Assembly (NCBI GenBank): GCA_963697165.1
Contig: CAVOMX010000002.1
Coordinates: 1 to 28,759, forward strand
Length of the DNA: 28,759 nt
Reading direction: 5' to 3'
Origin: Candidatus Bathyarchaeota archaeon
GTDB lineage: Archaea; Thermoproteota; Bathyarchaeia; Bathyarchaeales; Bathyarchaeaceae
A program made the position numbers. Position 1 is the stretch's first letter. Every line of letters starts with the position of its first letter. This document shows, piece by piece, positions 21,001 to 27,000 of the stretch.

Positions 21001-24000
21001 TGAACCAATACCGCCGTGGCAACCTGCCGACAAAGGGTTGTCTTCGTCGATAACACCCTTCGATCTGAAAGTGGTCACTATGGGCGCGCTGATTGTTTGA
21101 GCCAGTTTCAAGAGTTTGTTTCCTTGTCCTCTGGTCCCGAAACCTGCGATTATTACCGGACGCTCTGCTTGGTCTATCGCTTTAGCGGCTTTCTCTATAA
21201 GCGAATCCTCTACGCCGAAGGCCAAACTAGGCATTCTGCCCTCGAATGGCTGAATGTTCTTGTCACAAGGTAGTTTTTGCACATCGTTAGGTAAACCGAT
21301 GTTGCTTACCCCTTGATCCAGTAATGCATGTTTTACGGCGAGCGTGACTAGCATCGTTGTTTGTTCTTCAGTCATGAGAATTTTATTAAAGACACAGATC
21401 GGCTCGAAGAAACTATGCTGGTCGATTTCTTGGAGTGATCCCGGTCCAATAAATTGCCTCGCCACCATACCTGACAAAACAAGAACTGGCGAATGATCCA
21501 AGGAGGCATCATAAAGGCCTGTAGCTAAATTAGTTGCTCCGGGTCCGGAAACGCTTAGGCAAGCAGCAATATTTCCGGTGAGTTTGCCGTAAGCGGAGGC
21601 CATGAAAGCTGCAACTTCTTCGTGTCGCACTTGGATGTATTTTATTTTGTTACTTTTCCGTAGAGCGTCAACGACCCCAAGTGTTGATGTTCCAGGCACT
21701 CCGAAGACGTATTGTACACCCCATTCTGCGATTTGTTCAATTAGAACTTCTGATACTGTTTTACTTTTCTTTAACTGTTCCACTGTTTTCTCTGTTAAGA
21801 TTACGAATACGGTTTTGGGTACTCCGCACACGGGGCACACCCATTCTGATGGCAAGTCGCTGAATTTCTTTTCTTCTTTTAATTCATCATATACATAGTT
21901 GCAAACTGTGCACCTGTACTTTGTCACGATCAATACCTCAAAAAACCTTGGCTTATCTATGTTGATTTGGTTTTATCTATTTTTGGATTGATCATTTCGA
22001 ATTAATCGCTATTATTTTTTATTAAAGTGCCCTACTCTTAGTTTGTTTGATAGTTATCTTCGAGATAACTGTATTCCATTGACTTATCTAGTTTAAGCGC
22101 GCGCATTGCATTACGTTTGTCAGTTTATGCACCTTTTTTTAGCCAGGGATGCATATTGGGTTTCGAATCCTCGATTGAATATTCTCTGGTTTTATCTTCT
22201 TTTTCCTTTATTGTTTTATTACAATAAGGGCAGTCCTTTGGCAGTTCCGCGCCCAAGTCCCATTGAAATTGGGGGAGGCTAACGTTCCGCTTACAGTTCG
22301 GACATTGTTTATTTACCAAAATTCTATCACCTCTTTAATTTGAATTATGAGTCTAGTAACTGTTAAACATATTATGGGCTATTAGATATTTATTCAACTC
22401 GGTTTGCCCGTACATTAGTCGGGTGATATCACCAATATGGGCCAGAATTACCTCATTGCAGCCATAATTTGTTTGATCCCGACCATTTGTATGGTGTCCA
22501 AATTATGGGCGCGCATTCTTTGGGATGTTAATTGGGACTGAAGTCTATATTCTCTTCAGAATTATAGCTTCCCTTTCTGTCTATCCCATAGCAGCACAAG
22601 TATGATTCTTCTTTTGGAGATCAAGAGGGCATCCTCCTCCACAAATCTGCAGTTGGGGACACTCCCTACATTTTGGTTCTACATATTCTCTATTTCTAAT
22701 TTTGACCGCTAGCGGATGATTCCAGATGCTTTTCCAATCATTCTTCAAGATGTTACCTAAACTCTCAAAGTAACTCTGGCAAGGATATACATCCCCGTTT
22801 GGTCCAATACACATGTTAATCATTGCAGCTGAACAAGATTTTATACCCAAACCGAGCTCGATTGGATTAAATTTACAGTATTGGGTTGGAGTATACCACA
22901 AGAATTTTAATCCCAGCTTAGTTGCTTTATCCTGAACCTTTGGCAGAAGAATCTTCAAATCTTCAAGAGGAAAAACAAAATCTTCAATTACATCTTTTGC
23001 TTTTCCAGAATAGATCAAACTATTGCATCCGAAGGCAGCAACCCCCAAGTCCTTAATAAAATCTATAGTATCAAGAAAATCCCCCGCATTATACTTACTT
23101 AATGTTGTGTTTGTAGTTGTGTAGATTTTTGTTGGAATCAGATTCTTAATTCCTGCTACCGTCTCCGTCCAGCTTCCCATAATACCCGTCATCAAATCAT
23201 GAATCTCTGGCCTATGAGACTCGAGAGTTACCTGAACAAAATCAAGTCCAGACTCCCCGAGAGATCTAACATATTTTTCATCAGTTAATCTTCTTCCGTT
23301 GGTAATTAGACCCGTTACTAAACCCTTTTTTTGTCCATAACTAAGGAGTTCAAGCAAATCCTCCTTTAAGGTTGGCTCTCCACCCGTAAAAGTCAAAATA
23401 AAAACGCCAATCCGATAAAGATGATCAATAACCTGCTTCCATTGTTCAGTAGAAAGTTCATCTGTTTCGTGGGATCCACCAGCATAACAATGAATACAAC
23501 TATTCTGGCATCTGAAAGTAAGTGACACATCAACCCGTATAGGAGCAGAATACTCTTGGCTAAAAGGCTCAATTTTCTTTAAGTCAAGATATGATATAGG
23601 ATCCACTTCTTCAGTCTGCACCAATGTACATTAACAGTATAAACCAACTTTTCATAATCAACCCTGGCACGTCTCTCTTTAACCCGAAAAATACTTCTAA
23701 TCTTAGAGACAACCTCTTCAGTTGTCAAACCCTGCATCAAAAAATACGCATAAGCTGTAGAAGTCTCGTTTAAAAATAAAACCGTGTTCGCATTAATAAT
23801 CATAAGCCCATTACCGTCAGATTCAACCCGAAGTTGAAGAGCTAAACCCCTAAAATGGCCTTCCCCTCTATAGGTGTATCTTCCTTGAGGAATTTTTGAT
23901 CTCTGAAAAATCTTACGTGCAAAACCCATAATCAAACTTCCTTTACTACCCAACTCCTCCACCAGCACATGCACAGGCGCATGAAACACAAGCACAGGCG

Positions 24001-27000
24001 CATGCACACGTAGCACAAGCACATACACACTTGGCTTTTTGTTGCACTGGTTGCTTAGATGATTTTTGCTTAGGACCCATGGGAACTATAGAATTAGCAA
24101 ATTTTTCCATATTGACAACAAAATTATTAGCGCTCTTTTCTATCGCAGTAGCTATATTATTAGCAAAATCTGCACCAGGAATTGTAGGAGGTTTTTTTCC
24201 TTGAGCCGGAACCCCAATATTAGGCTTGTATGTCGGATTCGGAGAATAATACCTATAAGAATACCAATACCAAAACCAAAAAGGACTAGGCTCAAAAACC
24301 CTATTGCTAAAAACTGTTTTAGTTCGATCTGAAACCTTCGGATCCAAAAACAACCAGAGCAACTGTTCATCATAAGCTTTGGAGGTTAATTTTGTTGTTC
24401 CAGCTCCTTCAACCTGTCCCCAAGCTTTCTCAACAATCTTTCGATAATAATCTATCGTGTCACTTCTACAATATCCCTTCAACTTTTCCTCCATAGTAGA
24501 TTCAAGAAACATAATCATTGAAGCAAGCTTCTCCTCACCAAGAGACCCGTCATCATTAATAGAATTAAGAAAATCGATCTCATAATATCTCAAAGGATTC
24601 TCTGGCGTTCCTGTTTTGTCAAGGAATGGTTTTAGTATCCTAAATCTAAGAGAAGGAGATGTGTTCTCAACCCAAACAGCCCTCTTCTTAAGAACACTAT
24701 ACAATATCTCAGTGACAATCTGAGGCGGCTTTAAATCCAAAAGATAAGAAGCTTCTACAGCAGTTAATCCCCTTACTATTCCTAGACATTCAATACCAAC
24801 ACTAGGTTTTGAATAGGGTCGCTTACGAGAAACAAATAATACAAAAACTAACACAATCCCAATGACTCCAAATACCAATAATGGCCAAAAACTCTCCAAA
24901 AAATTTTCTAACCCGTCAGATCCATCAGTAACTGAGGTCCATCCTTCCTGTTTTGGATAGGAAACTTCAACCGTAAATCTTTCATCTGGCAAAAGATTTT
25001 GCTTTTCCCAATAAACAGCCAACCTATCATCTTCATATTGGACATTATTCCAAAAGATTGACCCTGTTTTCACTTCACTCTCAGAGACTCCAGGAGGCAA
25101 AACAATAAGCACCCGTGCATCTTCAATAACTGCTTCTGAAAACCAAGATAAAGTAAATTGCATTCCATCATTTCCCGGATTAGTTTCGTCTTCATAAATC
25201 ATGTGAGCAACATTCGTAACCAAAGTAAACCAAACAGTCTGTCCAGCTTGTAAAGGAGAATCAAGATTAACCCTAACATTATAGTCACTTCCAGAACTGA
25301 TATCAGCTGTTTCTAACGTATTCCCAAACTGATCCACAGCAGAACCGATAAAAAAGTCGCCTTTAGGTTGACCAATACTTATCCAATTAATTTCCTGACC
25401 AAAATCAAGAGTTAAGCTAACATTATAAAAAAGATCAATAGAACCGTCCGAATTTATCCAAACTTGCGCCCATTCCTGCCCAAAAAAATATTGCCTCTGA
25501 GCAACAATCCCCTCAACAAATGAAAAACACACTAACCCAACAAGTAACACAACCAGAACAGCAGACAACTTCACCATTTTGGTTCCTCAACTACCTCAAA
25601 AGTATGACCACAATAATCACAAGTAGCATATGGCACTCCGGAAACAGTCTTTATACTATTTGAATTTATAGAAGCCGAACAGTTTGGACATTTCAAAGCA
25701 ACAGCTTTCATCTGACCCGAAAACTCCAATCTCTGAATACTCACCTTAGGTTTTCTAGTCAAGTAATATACGATCCCAAAACCTACAACAAAAAATAAGC
25801 CAGCAACAATTAATCTTGAAACCGCAAACACCGAAGCGAAAGCAAAAATAATTCCCAAAAAGAAAAGAACAGCAACTACAATCGAGCCCAAAACCATCTT
25901 CAGATTCATAGATACATCTGAGGCACATTAAATATAAAAAAATATTCTGTAATTTGCCTCCCTATTCTTTATCCAAAAACCCCAAACCCAAAATATTTGC
26001 GCACGTTCTCGGTTAAGAATTGACAATCCGAAAAAAGGTGGAGTTGCGGGATTTAATCGGGTGATTTCGCTACGGTATTATGAATTGATGAATCCAGAAT
26101 ACTAGTTACAAATTTGGAATACTGTTAGGTTTTTTCTTCTTTTCTTAAGGAGTTTGTTGTAACAACTTTTTTATTTGCTTTGAGTCCAATAAGTGAATAT
26201 GGTTTCTTCAAAGGTTGCTGCGTTAATGGCTTATATTGGAGGTACGCTTCTATTGCTTGCTGGAGCAACAGGTTCTGTTGGCATTGTTGGAACAATAATA
26301 GAATATATGATTGAAAATTTAGGTGGCGCCACCGCAAACTTTCTCTCGATGATTTTGCAAGTGCTAAATTTTGTCGCTGATTTAGGCAGTGTAGCTGTTA
26401 TTATAGGTGGCTCATTTGTCCTAACTGAAAGAAAGAGAACAGGCAGATTCATCATGGGTCTTGGCGCTGGAATGGGATTGATCGGTTTTCTGTTAATATT
26501 AGCTTCTGCTTTATTGCACGGTTGAGCTAACGCAATAGATTTCTTGCTCATCATATCTCAATCTGTTGGCTGGATCGGCGTAATTTTTGCAATAATCGCC
26601 ACATTACTAGCCAAATAATGTGCCAAAAAAAGATGAAAAAATTTGGTTTAACTAGTGAGCTATTTTTTCTTTTTGAGACAGAATAACACTGATTCTTTAG
26701 GTATAGGTTTTTGATAGGTGATGCTTTTCTGTTCCTTTGAATCGGACATAAACTTCCACAGTGTCATCCAACCAGTCATGCTGTTTCGCTTTCCAGCCTA
26801 TCTTGAAGACTTCATCTTTGTTTGTAATGCCCGAGACAAGTATGTCGTCGCTCATGAATTACCTGTCTCTCGTAAATGCCGATTTCTCCGTTTCTTATCC
26901 CTTTACAAGTGTCACTTGCGGTCATTTCTTTTGAGAAAAATAATTCAAAAAAATAACATTAAGAATGTGACTAAAGTTTGATGTTGTTCCATTGGAAATA

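What a model noticed while it worked through the whole genome (the two positions that open the first line are those of the whole stretch)
22581..25909. DUF2207-like membrane protein with an invariant C-terminal (Cys-Ala)n tail, always paired with a radical SAM/SPASM enzym [...]
g00136 (543 aa: signal peptide, outer domain, one membrane helix, cytoplasmic domain) ends in CVCACATCACACACVSCACACAGGGVG, eleven cysteines alternating with small residues, and is followed by a radical SAM/SPASM gene (g00135+g00134); a frameshifted second copy lies at C21:32784-35855. I propose that the SPASM enzyme post-translationally modifies the tail of this full-length membrane protein (thioether cross-links or another Cys chemistry, as SPASM maturases do on RiPP peptides and on QhpC), making a protein-borne, RiPP-like cofactor or metal-binding ladder at the inner face of the membrane. 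A conserved protein-substrate/SPASM-maturase pair of this kind has not been described in archaea.
Evidence so far: Sequences. 344 homologues at E<=1e-5 in the 5.8-billion-protein set, the 120 listed 63-86% identical, named sources Bathyarchaeota/-ia (one 'Binatia' bin); 6 of 6 fetched homologues (65-86% id) end in C[VA]CAC[AH][AT]CACACACVSCACACAGGG[VG][GH] and show that g01987+g01988 on C21 are one gene split by a frameshift; in an 11-sequence alignment 21 of the last 27 columns are invariant. Six-frame search: 10 of 60 Bathyarchaeia genomes sampled over the class have it; in 10 of 10 of their loci (8 families) the next gene, ~400 nt downstream on the same strand, is the orthologue of g00134 (54-71% id). 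g00134: Pfam Radical_SAM+SPASM, NCBIfam TIGR04085 SPASM domain only. No Pfam hit for g00136 at E<=0.0 [...]
(Added by a program. Inside this text positions count along the whole contig: contig position 1 is position 1 of the stretch shown here. "Call 12" and the like, gene names such as g00115 and contig names such as C1 are that model's own, and its searches are not shown. The text may have been shortened before it was handed on; [...] marks where a part breaks off. The agent that wrote the report below was given it as the finding of a first reader that could run no searches.)

Follow-up and report, generated by a model that had tools for sequence, protein, structure and literature searches.

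The report
Cys-Ala-tailed membrane protein with radical-SAM partner
A membrane protein that ends in an unchanging run of alternating cysteines and alanines is always encoded with a peptide-modifying radical-SAM enzyme, in many anaerobic archaea and bacteria, which suggests that the enzyme chemically rewires the protein's tail, though nobody has shown this.

Summary
The window encodes, on the minus strand, a small membrane/zinc-ribbon protein, a 543-aa bitopic membrane protein and a radical SAM/SPASM enzyme. The membrane protein ends in CVCACATCACACACVSCACACAGGGVG, which has ten cysteines, not eleven. The "gap" between tail gene and enzyme is an N-terminal RRE (PqqD-like peptide-docking) domain, fused to the enzyme in 26 of 29 related loci. 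The window's split is a 2-nt insertion that is absent from all public metagenome contigs laid on it. The "second copy" on C21 is the overlapping end of another contig, not a paralogue.

Coupling is strict. In 301 genomes of the class, 58 have both genes, 3 only the tail protein (two fragments, one weak hit) and 1 only an enzyme fragment. The family reaches far beyond archaea: 919 clusters at 50% identity, mostly Anaerolineae, with shorter CACACA...GGGR tails. The enzyme travels with it there too.

Best reading (0.55): the tail is the enzyme's substrate, most likely for thioether cross-links. Nothing shows the modification.

A protein-substrate/SPASM pair in archaea is now published (CrpA/CrpC, 2026), but this cassette belongs to no named family. 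Earlier notes of this scan found the same cassette on four other genomes.

The parts
25571..25909 (-). 112-aa membrane protein: hydrophobic N-terminal half, then a cytoplasmic CxxC...CxxC zinc ribbon (Cys 74, 77, 97, 100). Its stop overlaps the start of the tail-protein gene.
   Evidence: ORF. Weak zinc-ribbon Pfam/NCBIfam hits, all below cut-off. Hydropathy and Cys positions. Found directly upstream in 28 of 29 class loci, the 29th being cut by the locus end, and in most bacterial loci.
23946..25577 (-). 543-aa bitopic membrane protein (g00136), distant DUF2207 relative: signal/anchor, outer beta-sandwich, one TM helix, cytoplasmic domain, Trp/Tyr-rich stretch, conserved helix, Cys-Ala tail.
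   Evidence: ORF. Alignment A2. AlphaFold model, mean pLDDT 66. 1555 homologues at E<=1e-3 among 8000 scored candidates. 919 clusters at 50% identity.
24954..25493 (-). Outer beta-sandwich domain (residues 29-208).
   Evidence: pLDDT about 90. Foldseek best matches are Ost1/ribophorin I of oligosaccharyltransferase (8b6l_O E 1.4e-11, 6ezn_A) and the N-domain of M1 aminopeptidases. Subthreshold DUF2207 N-domain hits in 2 of 65 representatives. The same domain occurs alone, fused to NosD, beta-helix or CBM96 domains, in P0188, P0194 and P0220.
24828..24884 (-). Transmembrane helix (residues 232-250).
   Evidence: Kyte-Doolittle 2.87. There are 0 Lys/Arg in the 19 residues before it and 5 in the 20 after it, which puts the C-terminal half inside. 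Helix 231-250 in the model.
24303..24770 (-). Cytoplasmic helical / small-sheet domain (residues 270-425).
   Evidence: pLDDT 60-89. Many invariant columns. One subthreshold DUF2207_C hit in a representative.
24081..24179 (-). Conserved helix just upstream of the tail (residues 467-499, ...PGADFANNIATAIEK..NMEKFANSIVP). Candidate recognition ('leader-like') sequence for the RRE; this is an inference.
   Evidence: Invariant P467 G468 A472 V487 E491 K492 F493 I497 P499 in 28 sequences. The PGxxFA motif is also kept in the bacterial alignment A4. Helix 467-497 in the model, at low confidence.
23949..24029 (-). The tail: CxCxC-xx-CxCxCxC-xx-CxCxC-A-GGG-xx (residues 517-543), 10 Cys.
   Evidence: The unit CACACA[GS]G is present in 120 of the 150 best representatives. 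The other 30 are fragments, N-domain-only proteins, or one variant with CDCACAGGGR.
23630..23929 (-). RRE (PqqD-like) domain of the enzyme. In the window it is cut off from the catalytic part.
   Evidence: Pfam PqqD E 0.19 and NCBIfam lasso_PqqD E 3.3e-4, both below cut-off. PqqD matched weakly in 21 of 28 members of alignment A3, which includes the two window pieces (best E 0.0027). Domain profile against PDB: TfuB1 6jx3_B, E 0.0041. Model: four strands plus three helices, pLDDT 75-93.
23630..23631 (-). 2-nt insertion that splits RRE from rSAM in this assembly. Probably an assembly or strain artefact.
   Evidence: Absent in L012 and L013, in the C21 copy, and in all contigs of 4 public runs that cover the place.
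22581..23624 (-). Radical SAM core plus SPASM domain (g00134, 347 aa as called here).
   Evidence: Pfam Radical_SAM and SPASM. 84 NCBIfam families hit; all of the best 25 shown are below their cut-offs. TIGR04463 scores 34.8 bits against a cut-off of 525. PDB profile hits SkfB E 3.6e-24, SuiB, PqqE.
23487..23510 (-). CxxxCxxC motif (C39, C43, C46 of the 347-aa ORF) for the SAM-cleaving [4Fe-4S] cluster.
   Evidence: Read from the translation. Nearly invariant C139/C143/C146 in alignment A3.
22656..22835 (-). SPASM domain with C-x12-G-x4-C and CxxCx5Cx3C cysteines (two auxiliary clusters expected).
   Evidence: Pfam SPASM at residues 264-323. Nearly invariant C364, C372, C382, C419, C422, C428, C432 in A3.

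Best explanation
This is a three-gene cassette in which an RRE-fused radical SAM/SPASM enzyme matures the C-terminal Cys-Ala tract of a full-length membrane protein.

The protein is inserted with its beta-sandwich outside and its C-terminal half in the cytoplasm. The enzyme's RRE docks on the conserved helix just upstream of the tract (inferred). The radical SAM site then abstracts a hydrogen from a carbon of a neighbouring small residue (Ala, Gly, Val or Ser), and a cysteine sulphur closes a thioether. Repeated along the tract, this would give a cross-linked ladder held at the inner face of the membrane, next to the Trp/Tyr-rich stretch. The chemistry is inferred from precedent only.

The ladder could be a rigid structural element or a site that holds metal. 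The small TM/zinc-ribbon protein is a third, co-translated component of unknown role.

Shown: the gene coupling, the domain build, the protein-level constraint on every tail residue, and the predicted topology.
Inferred: that the tail is the substrate, the type of bond, and the function of the product.
For: 1. Coupling. All 29 class loci have the order zinc-ribbon protein, tail protein, RRE, rSAM. Of 301 class genomes, 61 have the tail protein, 59 the enzyme and 58 both. The exceptions are fragments or one weak hit.

2. Coupling outside the class. Of 80 mostly bacterial loci, 67 hold an orthologue-level match (>=40% identity) within 4 kb. Five hold only a weaker match (22-36% identity), which in four of them is best read as the Cys-less paralogue. 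Three are cut by a contig end. Five have none nearby, but all five of those genomes encode an orthologue elsewhere (E 1e-149 to 1e-172).

3. Enzyme type.
- CxxxCxxC plus the SPASM cysteine set.
- An RRE-like N-domain.
- The whole-length model is closest to the RiPP maturases SuiB (TM 0.67), SkfB and CteB.
- NCBIfam SkfB and KxxxW models align from residue 29-32, so they include the RRE.

4. No other candidate substrate. The tail gene stops 16 nt before the enzyme gene. No conserved gene or small ORF lies downstream in 20 loci. In this genome only this locus and its overlapping copy encode such a tract in a long ORF.

5. Constraint. Cys, Ala, Val and Ser of the tract are invariant despite free synonymous change. 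The unit CACACA(G/S)G is kept from archaea to Chloroflexota, while the number of repeats varies from 3 to 11 Cys.

6. Access. The tail is on the cytoplasmic side by the positive-inside rule.

7. Precedent. CrpC puts thioethers on a whole protein in an archaeon (PMC13692751, sections 8, 12, 14). StsB links the CxCxC cysteines of StsA to alternating glycines in a hairpin (PMC10288494, section 7 and passages of section 8).
Against: - No modification has been observed. Everything rests on gene neighbourhood and resemblance.
- The best NCBIfam scores of the enzyme are to tetrapyrrole enzymes (AhbD 143 bits, NirJ2 142 bits), not to sactisynthases (StsB 82 bits, AlbA 96 bits). All are far below cut-off, so sequence does not point to thioether chemistry.
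- The RRE assignment rests on weak sequence scores (E 0.004 at best) plus a predicted fold.
- The C-terminal 118 residues of the substrate model are low confidence.
- CxC-rich tracts also bind metals without any maturase (metallothioneins; recalled).
- Many Chloroflexota loci add a Cys-less paralogue of the enzyme and a class I methyltransferase that the archaeal cassette lacks, so the chemistry may differ or have more steps.
Confidence: 0.55

Rival explanations
1. The tail is a metal- or iron-sulphur-binding site (metallothionein-like) that needs no covalent change. The radical SAM enzyme then acts on another part of the protein, on the zinc-ribbon partner or on a non-protein substrate, or helps load a cluster onto the tail.
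For: Ten thiols in CxC spacing are typical of thiolate clusters (recalled). The carriers named belong to groups I know as anaerobes (recalled). In CrpA/CrpC the authors also suspect metal binding, because the genes are upregulated on pyrite (PMC13692751, sections 8 and 14).
Against: A plain metal site would not need an RRE-bearing maturase in every genome. The residues between the cysteines (6 Ala, Val, Ser) are as invariant as the cysteines, which simple metal ligation does not require. No other conserved Cys-rich or peptide-like region lies in the cassette.
Confidence: 0.2
2. The enzyme modifies the tail, but not by thioether formation. Options are Cys to formylglycine or dehydroalanine, epimerisation of Ala/Val to D-residues, or C-methylation. 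In bacteria a further methylation by the linked methyltransferase would follow.
For: SPASM enzymes do several chemistries. anSME is among the structural matches (4k37). MftC and PqqE score higher than the sactisynthases in NCBIfam. A class I methyltransferase is linked in many bacterial loci, and it sits beside the enzyme in three of the five loci where the enzyme is away from the tail gene.
Against: The archaeal cassette has no methyltransferase. The tail has no C/S-x-P/A-x-R motif of sulfatase type (motif recalled). Every characterised RRE-rSAM acting on a Cys-rich core that I read about here makes thioethers (PMC10288494, PMC13692751).
Confidence: 0.15
3. The tract is a hydrophobic membrane anchor: a C-terminal helix of small residues, or a site for lipid attachment. 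The enzyme is linked for another reason.
For: Kyte-Doolittle mean of 2.12 over 19 residues of the tail, as high as a weak TM segment. DUF2207 proteins have C-terminal membrane helices (recalled).
Against: Bacterial relatives keep only 15, 10 or even 6 residues of the tract, flanked by poly-Gly/Ser, which is too short to span a membrane. In two representatives the tract is internal and followed by about 90 more residues. The invariance of each residue goes beyond what hydrophobicity needs.
Confidence: 0.05

Closest known systems
CrpA/CrpC of Methanococcus voltae (Dieter et al. 2026, PMC13692751; abstract and sections 8, 12, 14 read)
   Same: An archaeal RRE-radical SAM-SPASM enzyme encoded next to a large protein whose C-terminal part carries repeated cysteine motifs. 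The enzyme installs thioether (ranthionine) links on the whole protein. The final function is unknown and a metal role is suspected.
   Different: CrpC belongs to TIGR04463; the window's enzyme scores 34.8 bits against its cut-off of 525. CrpA has a 17-residue motif repeated ten times with C-x-x-Q/D, and the paper's main text does not use the word transmembrane. Here the substrate is a membrane protein with a 22-residue strictly alternating Cys-Ala tract, plus a TM/zinc-ribbon partner. At 13 Cys in 543 residues this protein would fall below that paper's cysteine-content filter (filter from section 8).
StsA/StsB and BlaA/BlaB hairpin sactipeptides (Precord et al. 2023, PMC10288494; abstract, section 7 and passages of section 8 read)
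   Same: Cysteines at alternate positions (CxCxC) are linked to small residues at alternate positions (GxGxG) by an RRE-associated rSAM/SPASM enzyme.
   Different: Those are short secreted-type peptides with an N-terminal leader. The NCBIfam StsB model gives only 82 bits against a cut-off of 625. [quoted passage not shown]
QhpC/QhpD of quinohemoprotein amine dehydrogenase (as described in the introduction of PMC13692751, passage seen)
   Same: A radical SAM enzyme with an RRE puts Cys thioether links into a protein subunit that stays part of a cellular machine.
   Different: QhpC is a small soluble subunit with Cys-Asp/Glu links. No sequence test against QhpD was run here.
SuiB, SkfB, CteB (solved RRE-rSAM-SPASM maturases; PDB 5v1q, 6efn, 5wgg)
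   Same: Same three-domain build. Foldseek E 9e-16 to 2e-11, TM up to 0.67 over 440-461 columns. Profile hit to SkfB E 3.6e-24.
   Different: 13-22% sequence identity. Their substrates are short peptides, and SuiB makes a Lys-Trp carbon-carbon link, so fold alone does not fix the chemistry.
Pfam DUF2207 / DUF2207_C (PF09972, PF20990)
   Same: Signal peptide, outer beta-rich domain, TM helix, cytoplasmic region and a low-complexity Gly-rich C-terminus. Subthreshold hits in 3 of 65 representatives. An Atlas cluster carrying both families ranks 13th at score 0.93.
   Different: The window protein has no hit at E<=1, and none of 65 representatives reaches the gathering score (best 23.9 against 24.4 bits). 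No paper with both 'DUF2207' and 'radical SAM' was found.

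Membership tests
Pfam DUF2207 (PF09972) / DUF2207_C (PF20990) | Score at or above the Pfam gathering threshold | tested here: not met
   No hit at E<=1 for the window protein. Of 65 representatives, 2 have subthreshold N-domain hits (best 23.9 bits against 24.4) and 1 a subthreshold C-domain hit.
Pfam DUF2207 (PF09972) / DUF2207_C (PF20990) | Architecture: signal peptide, outer domain, TM helix, cytoplasmic region | tested here: met
   Model and hydropathy. An Atlas neighbour cluster carries DUF2207 in 88% and DUF2207_C in 80% of members, at score 0.93 (a lead only).
RRE-dependent radical SAM/SPASM peptide maturases (sacti-/ranthisynthase type) | CxxxCxxC radical SAM motif | tested here: met
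   C39/C43/C46 in the window ORF. Nearly invariant in 27 sequences. Pfam Radical_SAM E 9e-24.
RRE-dependent radical SAM/SPASM peptide maturases (sacti-/ranthisynthase type) | SPASM domain with the seven-cysteine pattern for two auxiliary clusters | tested here: met
   Pfam SPASM E 2.5e-11. C-x12-G-x4-C and CxxCx5Cx3C are conserved in A3. Cluster binding itself is not testable here.
RRE-dependent radical SAM/SPASM peptide maturases (sacti-/ranthisynthase type) | RiPP recognition element (PqqD-like fold) fused or adjacent | tested here: met
   Sequence support is weak: PqqD in 21 of 28 alignment members with best E 0.0027, lasso_PqqD E 3.3e-4, TfuB1 E 0.0041. The predicted fold matches, with strands 16-52 and helices 54-103 at pLDDT 75-93. 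The whole-length alignment to SuiB and SkfB includes their RRE.
RRE-dependent radical SAM/SPASM peptide maturases (sacti-/ranthisynthase type) | Cys-rich core of a substrate encoded beside the enzyme | tested here: met
   Adjacent in 29 of 29 class loci. The substrate is a 543-aa membrane protein, not a short peptide.
RRE-dependent radical SAM/SPASM peptide maturases (sacti-/ranthisynthase type) | Thioether bond formed on the substrate | not testable with these tools
   Needs mass spectrometry of the co-expressed or native protein.
RRE-dependent radical SAM/SPASM peptide maturases (sacti-/ranthisynthase type) | [quoted passage not shown] 2023) | not tested
   The reference residues are in a supplement PDF that could not be read.
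NCBIfam TIGR04463 (rSAM_vs_C_rich, the CrpC family) | Score at or above the curated cut-off of 525 bits | tested here: not met
   34.8 bits at C2:23034-23537.
Any other named NCBIfam radical SAM/SPASM family (AhbD, NirJ2, MftC, PqqE, WgkB, AlbA, SkfB, StsB, ACGX system ...) | Score at or above the family's curated cut-off | tested here: not met
   The best is AhbD at 143.5 bits against 500. All 25 listed families are below cut-off for the window ORF, the intact L013 enzyme and the Levilinea enzyme. Only the best 25 of 84, 59 and 60 families were shown.

The most novel reading that the evidence does not exclude
The enzyme turns the invariant (Cys-Ala)n tract of a full-length membrane protein into a protein-borne, covalently cross-linked sulphur ladder. 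This ladder works as a metal, iron-sulphur or redox site at the inner face of the membrane. It would be a widespread, undescribed protein-derived cofactor, shared by Bathyarchaeia, Methanomassiliicoccales, Anaerolineae and other groups I know as anaerobes. Its bond pattern, or its chemistry, would differ from known sactionine and ranthionine peptides.
Probability: 0.25. Interest if true: 0.85.

Novelty: new variant of a known kind. Interest (0 to 1): 0.65.

Why it matters
Radical SAM maturases are known mostly from short antibiotic-like peptides. Whole proteins as substrates are rare (QhpC, and since 2026 CrpA). This cassette would add a membrane protein family of at least 919 clusters at 50% identity, found in two domains of life. 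Its target sequence is so constrained that every residue is fixed.

It gives a concrete and cheap test: co-express the tail and the enzyme, then measure the mass. A cultured, harmless carrier (Levilinea saccharolytica) exists for native proteomics. A positive result would also give a first functional handle on the large DUF2207-like group of membrane proteins, whose role is unknown.

Tried and rejected
- **Complex prediction.** The intact enzyme of L013 was folded with residues 455-540 of its own tail protein. The result was 'no answer' (score 0.01, mark 0.32; controls not run). It counts neither for nor against binding.

- **Expression.** No RNA holder was listed among 21 runs. This is no evidence either way.

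- **Catalytic-site-proximity profiling** (Precord et al.). Not done, because the supplement PDF with the reference residues is too large to be read here and the spreadsheet holds none of the terms.

- **A hidden small precursor gene.**
  - The 64-aa zinc-ribbon ORF at 22125-22319 is not conserved downstream of the enzyme in 20 class loci.
  - The only recurrent neighbour there is a 414-aa HAD-like protein, in 7 of 20 loci.

- **The C21 'second copy' as a paralogue.** Rejected. It is a contig-end overlap.

- **The split of RRE and rSAM as a real two-gene arrangement or programmed frameshift.** Rejected.

- **Canonical DUF2207 in this genome, for a profile comparison.** None found at E<=0.01; the genome is 81% complete.

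- **Literature.**
  - 'DUF2207' with 'radical SAM': 0 papers.
  - 'radical SAM' + 'SPASM' + 'Bathyarchaeota': 3 papers, all on lipid enzymes by title and abstract start.
  - 'DUF2207' alone: 9 papers, none on this by title or abstract start.
  - Cys-Ala, CACACA and alternating-cysteine terms: nothing relevant.
  - The archaeal RiPP survey PMC12144867 has no passage on Bathyarchaeia or SPASM (term search only).

- **The tail as a transmembrane anchor.** Considered because of its hydropathy and set low because of the short bacterial variants.

Full report
**What is in the window.** Four ORFs lie head to tail on the minus strand.
- 25571-25909: a 112-aa protein with a hydrophobic N-terminal half and a CxxC...CxxC zinc ribbon.
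- 23946-25577: the 543-aa protein of the finding.
- An ORF ending at 23579, whose sensible start is the ATG at 23929.
- 22581-23624: a 347-aa radical SAM/SPASM ORF (Pfam Radical_SAM E 9e-24, SPASM E 2.5e-11).

The 543-aa protein ends in CVCACATCACACACVSCACACAGGGVG. A count gives ten cysteines in the tail, not eleven, arranged 3-4-3. The whole protein has 13.

**The enzyme is one gene with an RRE.** The ORF between the tail gene and the rSAM ORF gives weak PqqD-type hits (Pfam E 0.19; NCBIfam lasso_PqqD E 3.3e-4).
- In 29 loci fetched from the same class, the RRE-like part and the rSAM part share a stop codon in all but L029.
- They form an uninterrupted ORF of 432-452 aa in 26 of 29 loci. L012 has an early frameshift, L018 an in-frame stop and L029 a frameshift.
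- Against L012 and L013, the window carries two extra bases near 23630.
- The copy on contig C21 lacks them.
- In four public metagenome runs from three studies, every contig that covers the place leaves out 2 letters at 23630, at full depth: 1, 1, 3 and 2 contigs.

So in the population the enzyme is a single RRE-rSAM-SPASM protein, and the split is most likely an artefact of this assembly.

The same stretch of the window has another gene broken in the same way. A Diphthami_syn_2 gene is split at about 27774, where C21 lacks two bases.

**The 'second copy'.** The last 6,252 bases of C21 align with the last 6,248 bases of the window's contig in reverse orientation, at 94.8% identity with 300 mismatches and 23 indels. 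Each contig runs on where the other ends. That is the pattern of two contig ends that overlap but were not merged. The cause could be strain variation or noisy ends. It is not the pattern of a second locus. In the whole genome only these two places encode a (Cys-X) run of four or more units in a long ORF.

**Enzyme anatomy.**
- An alignment of 26 intact enzymes plus the two window pieces keeps CxxxCxxC, C-x12-G-x4-C and CxxCx5Cx3C.
- The AlphaFold model of the L013 enzyme (pLDDT 76.6, pTM 0.80) has four strands and three helices in residues 16-103, followed by the barrel and the SPASM part.
- Foldseek ranks SuiB first (E 9e-16, TM 0.67, 461 columns), then SkfB, PqqE and CteB.
- A profile of the whole enzyme finds SkfB in the PDB at E 3.6e-24.
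- A profile of the N-domain alone finds the lasso-peptide RRE TfuB1 at E 0.0041 and nothing else credible.
- No NCBIfam family reaches its cut-off. The best are AhbD (143 bits against 500) and NirJ2, and StsB gets 82 bits against 625.
- The CrpC family TIGR04463 gives 34.8 bits against 525.

**Substrate-protein anatomy.**
- The model (mean pLDDT 66) has a confident beta-sandwich at 29-208, a helix at 231-250, a moderately confident cytoplasmic domain at 270-425 and a low-confidence rest.
- The sandwich resembles Ost1/ribophorin I and the N-domain of M1 aminopeptidases.
- Hydropathy gives a signal-like segment at 7-25 and one TM segment at 232-250. There is no Lys/Arg just before the TM segment and five just after it, so the C-terminal half should be cytoplasmic.
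- The stretch FWFWYWYSYRYY is not hydrophobic on the Kyte-Doolittle scale (-0.84). I read it as an interface anchor, which is an inference.
- The tail itself scores 2.12, so it is hydrophobic.
- Upstream of the tail lies a conserved helix with invariant P467, G468, A472, E491, K492, F493 and P499.

**DUF2207.** Pfam gives no DUF2207 hit at E<=1. Of 65 representatives, two have subthreshold N-domain hits and one a subthreshold C-domain hit. The Atlas puts a DUF2207/DUF2207_C cluster at rank 13 with score 0.93. 'DUF2207-like' is fair as a remote resemblance, not as membership.

**How tight is the pairing.**
- In 301 genomes of the class, the tail protein is found in 61 and an enzyme orthologue (E<=1e-60) in 59. 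Fifty-eight have both, and where coordinates are listed for both they are adjacent on one contig.
- The three with the tail protein only are G136 and G139 (truncated matches) and G300 (E 2.7e-5, probably unrelated).
- The one with the enzyme only, G003, has a fragment on a short contig.
- The distribution is patchy. Two of seven other genomes of the genus have it, and some copies carry stops (G008, G081). The cassette is therefore accessory and sometimes decaying.

- A profile search of 1.84 billion representatives gives 919 clusters at E<=1e-3 and 268 at E<=1e-30.
- Of the best 150, 120 carry CACACA[GS]G within their last 140 residues. One has the variant CDCACAGGGR. The other 29 are fragments that stop before the tail, or proteins that share only the outer domain.
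- Tails fall into types: the archaeal 10-Cys form; (Gly/Ser)n-CACACACAGCACACAGGGR with 7 Cys; CACACACVSCACACACAGGGGCT; and forms with only 3-6 Cys.
- In P0143 and P0170 the tract is internal and followed by about 90 residues.

**Coupling in other lineages.** A scan of species genomes found 292 relatives. The 80 loci kept are mostly Anaerolineae and other Chloroflexota. Also present are Cloacimonadota, Zixibacteria, Acidobacteriota, Aminicenantes, a Methanomassiliicoccaceae archaeon and the cultured Levilinea saccharolytica KIBI-1.
- 72 of the 80 loci hold a match to the window's rSAM within the flanks, and 67 of these are at 40% identity or more.
- In the other five matches (22-36% identity), four are best read as a Cys-less paralogue and one (L062) is only a weak match.
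- Three loci are cut by a contig end.
- Five have nothing nearby, but each of those five genomes encodes an orthologue elsewhere (E 1e-149 to 1e-172), three times next to the methyltransferase.
- I did not check the genomes of the five loci that hold only the weaker match.

**Constraint on the tail.** In 26 of 30 tails that align without gaps, all ten Cys positions use both TGT and TGC. Six Ala positions use all four codons. The Val-Ser spacer uses four codons each. Yet the residues never change. This rules out a DNA-level repeat as the cause. It also shows that the small residues matter as much as the thiols. That fits an enzyme recognition or acceptor role better than simple metal ligation.

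**No other substrate candidate.**
- The tail gene ends 16 nt before the enzyme's start.
- Downstream of the enzyme, nothing is conserved across 20 class loci. The window's 64-aa zinc-ribbon ORF is not found in any of them, and a HAD-like 414-aa gene recurs in only 7.

**Comparison with what is known.**
- The closest published system is CrpA/CrpC. There an RRE-rSAM-SPASM enzyme of Methanococcus voltae installs ranthionine links on a 28.8-kDa cysteine-rich protein (PMC13692751; abstract and sections 8, 12, 14 read). That paper's filter of >=5% Cys for proteins over 250 aa would miss this family (2.4% Cys). A term search of its main text finds no 'Bathyarchae', 'transmembrane', 'DUF2207' or 'Cys-Ala'.
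- StsA/StsB show that alternate cysteines can be bridged to alternate small residues in a hairpin (PMC10288494; section 7 and passages of section 8).
- My searches found no paper on this cassette. Supplements of these papers were not searched, apart from one spreadsheet.
- Earlier notes of this scan describe the same cassette on four other genomes. They are unchecked AI notes. I used one as a lead to the Precord paper and tested the shared claims myself.

**Verdict.** That the tail is the enzyme's substrate is the best explanation (0.55), but it rests on context, architecture and precedent only. The bond type is open. The complex prediction gave no answer. The finding is a new variant of a known kind, namely RiPP-like radical SAM maturation of a whole protein, in a large cross-domain family with a cultured carrier. 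That makes it directly testable.

Noticed in passing
window 22512-28759 and G000:C21:29604-35855: The two contigs end in the same 6.25 kb in opposite orientation (94.8% identity, 300 mismatches, 23 indels, many of them 2 nt). This is an unmerged overlap or a strain variant, so frameshifts in this part of the window should not be read as biology.
   Followed up: yes
window 27505-28163 (-): A Diphthami_syn_2 (PF01902) gene is split into two overlapping ORFs (149 aa and 116 aa). The C21 copy lacks 2 bases at about 27774, where the frames change.
   Followed up: partly
L119:7026-8180 and L119:8159-8944 (Levilinea saccharolytica); the same in many of L041-L120: Many Chloroflexota cassettes carry, after the enzyme, a paralogue with an RRE-like start but no CxxxCxxC and no SPASM cysteines (Pfam Radical_SAM over 90 residues only). 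A class I SAM methyltransferase follows. The archaeal cassette has neither. The methyltransferase also sits next to the enzyme in three of the five genomes where the enzyme lies away from the tail gene.
   Followed up: partly
P0188, P0194, P0220 (representatives): The outer beta-sandwich domain also occurs without TM, cytoplasmic part or tail. In these it is fused to NosD/beta-helix, pectate-lyase-like, or CBM96/CARDB/dockerin domains, so it is an independent extracellular module.
   Followed up: partly
P0143 and P0170 (representatives): In these two proteins the Cys tract (CHCVCACVSCACVCACVSCACACASGGG...) is internal and is followed by about 90 further residues, so the tract need not be the C-terminus.
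   Followed up: no
window 20170-21933 (-): A thiamine-diphosphate enzyme (TPP_enzyme N, M and C domains) carries an N-terminal rubredoxin domain (PF00301, E 1.5e-9).
   Followed up: no
L132:66-1310 and six further class loci (L133, L134, L136, L139, L145, L146): A 414-aa protein with an N-terminal HAD-hydrolase domain starts 66 nt after the enzyme's stop in L132, on the same strand. It recurs downstream of the enzyme in 7 of 20 class loci, so it may be a lineage-specific fourth gene of the cassette.
   Followed up: partly
G008:C55, G081:C1, G136:C32, G139:C15: Several genomes of the class hold copies of the cassette with internal stops or truncated matches, and presence is patchy within genera. 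The cassette seems to be gained and lost often.
   Followed up: no
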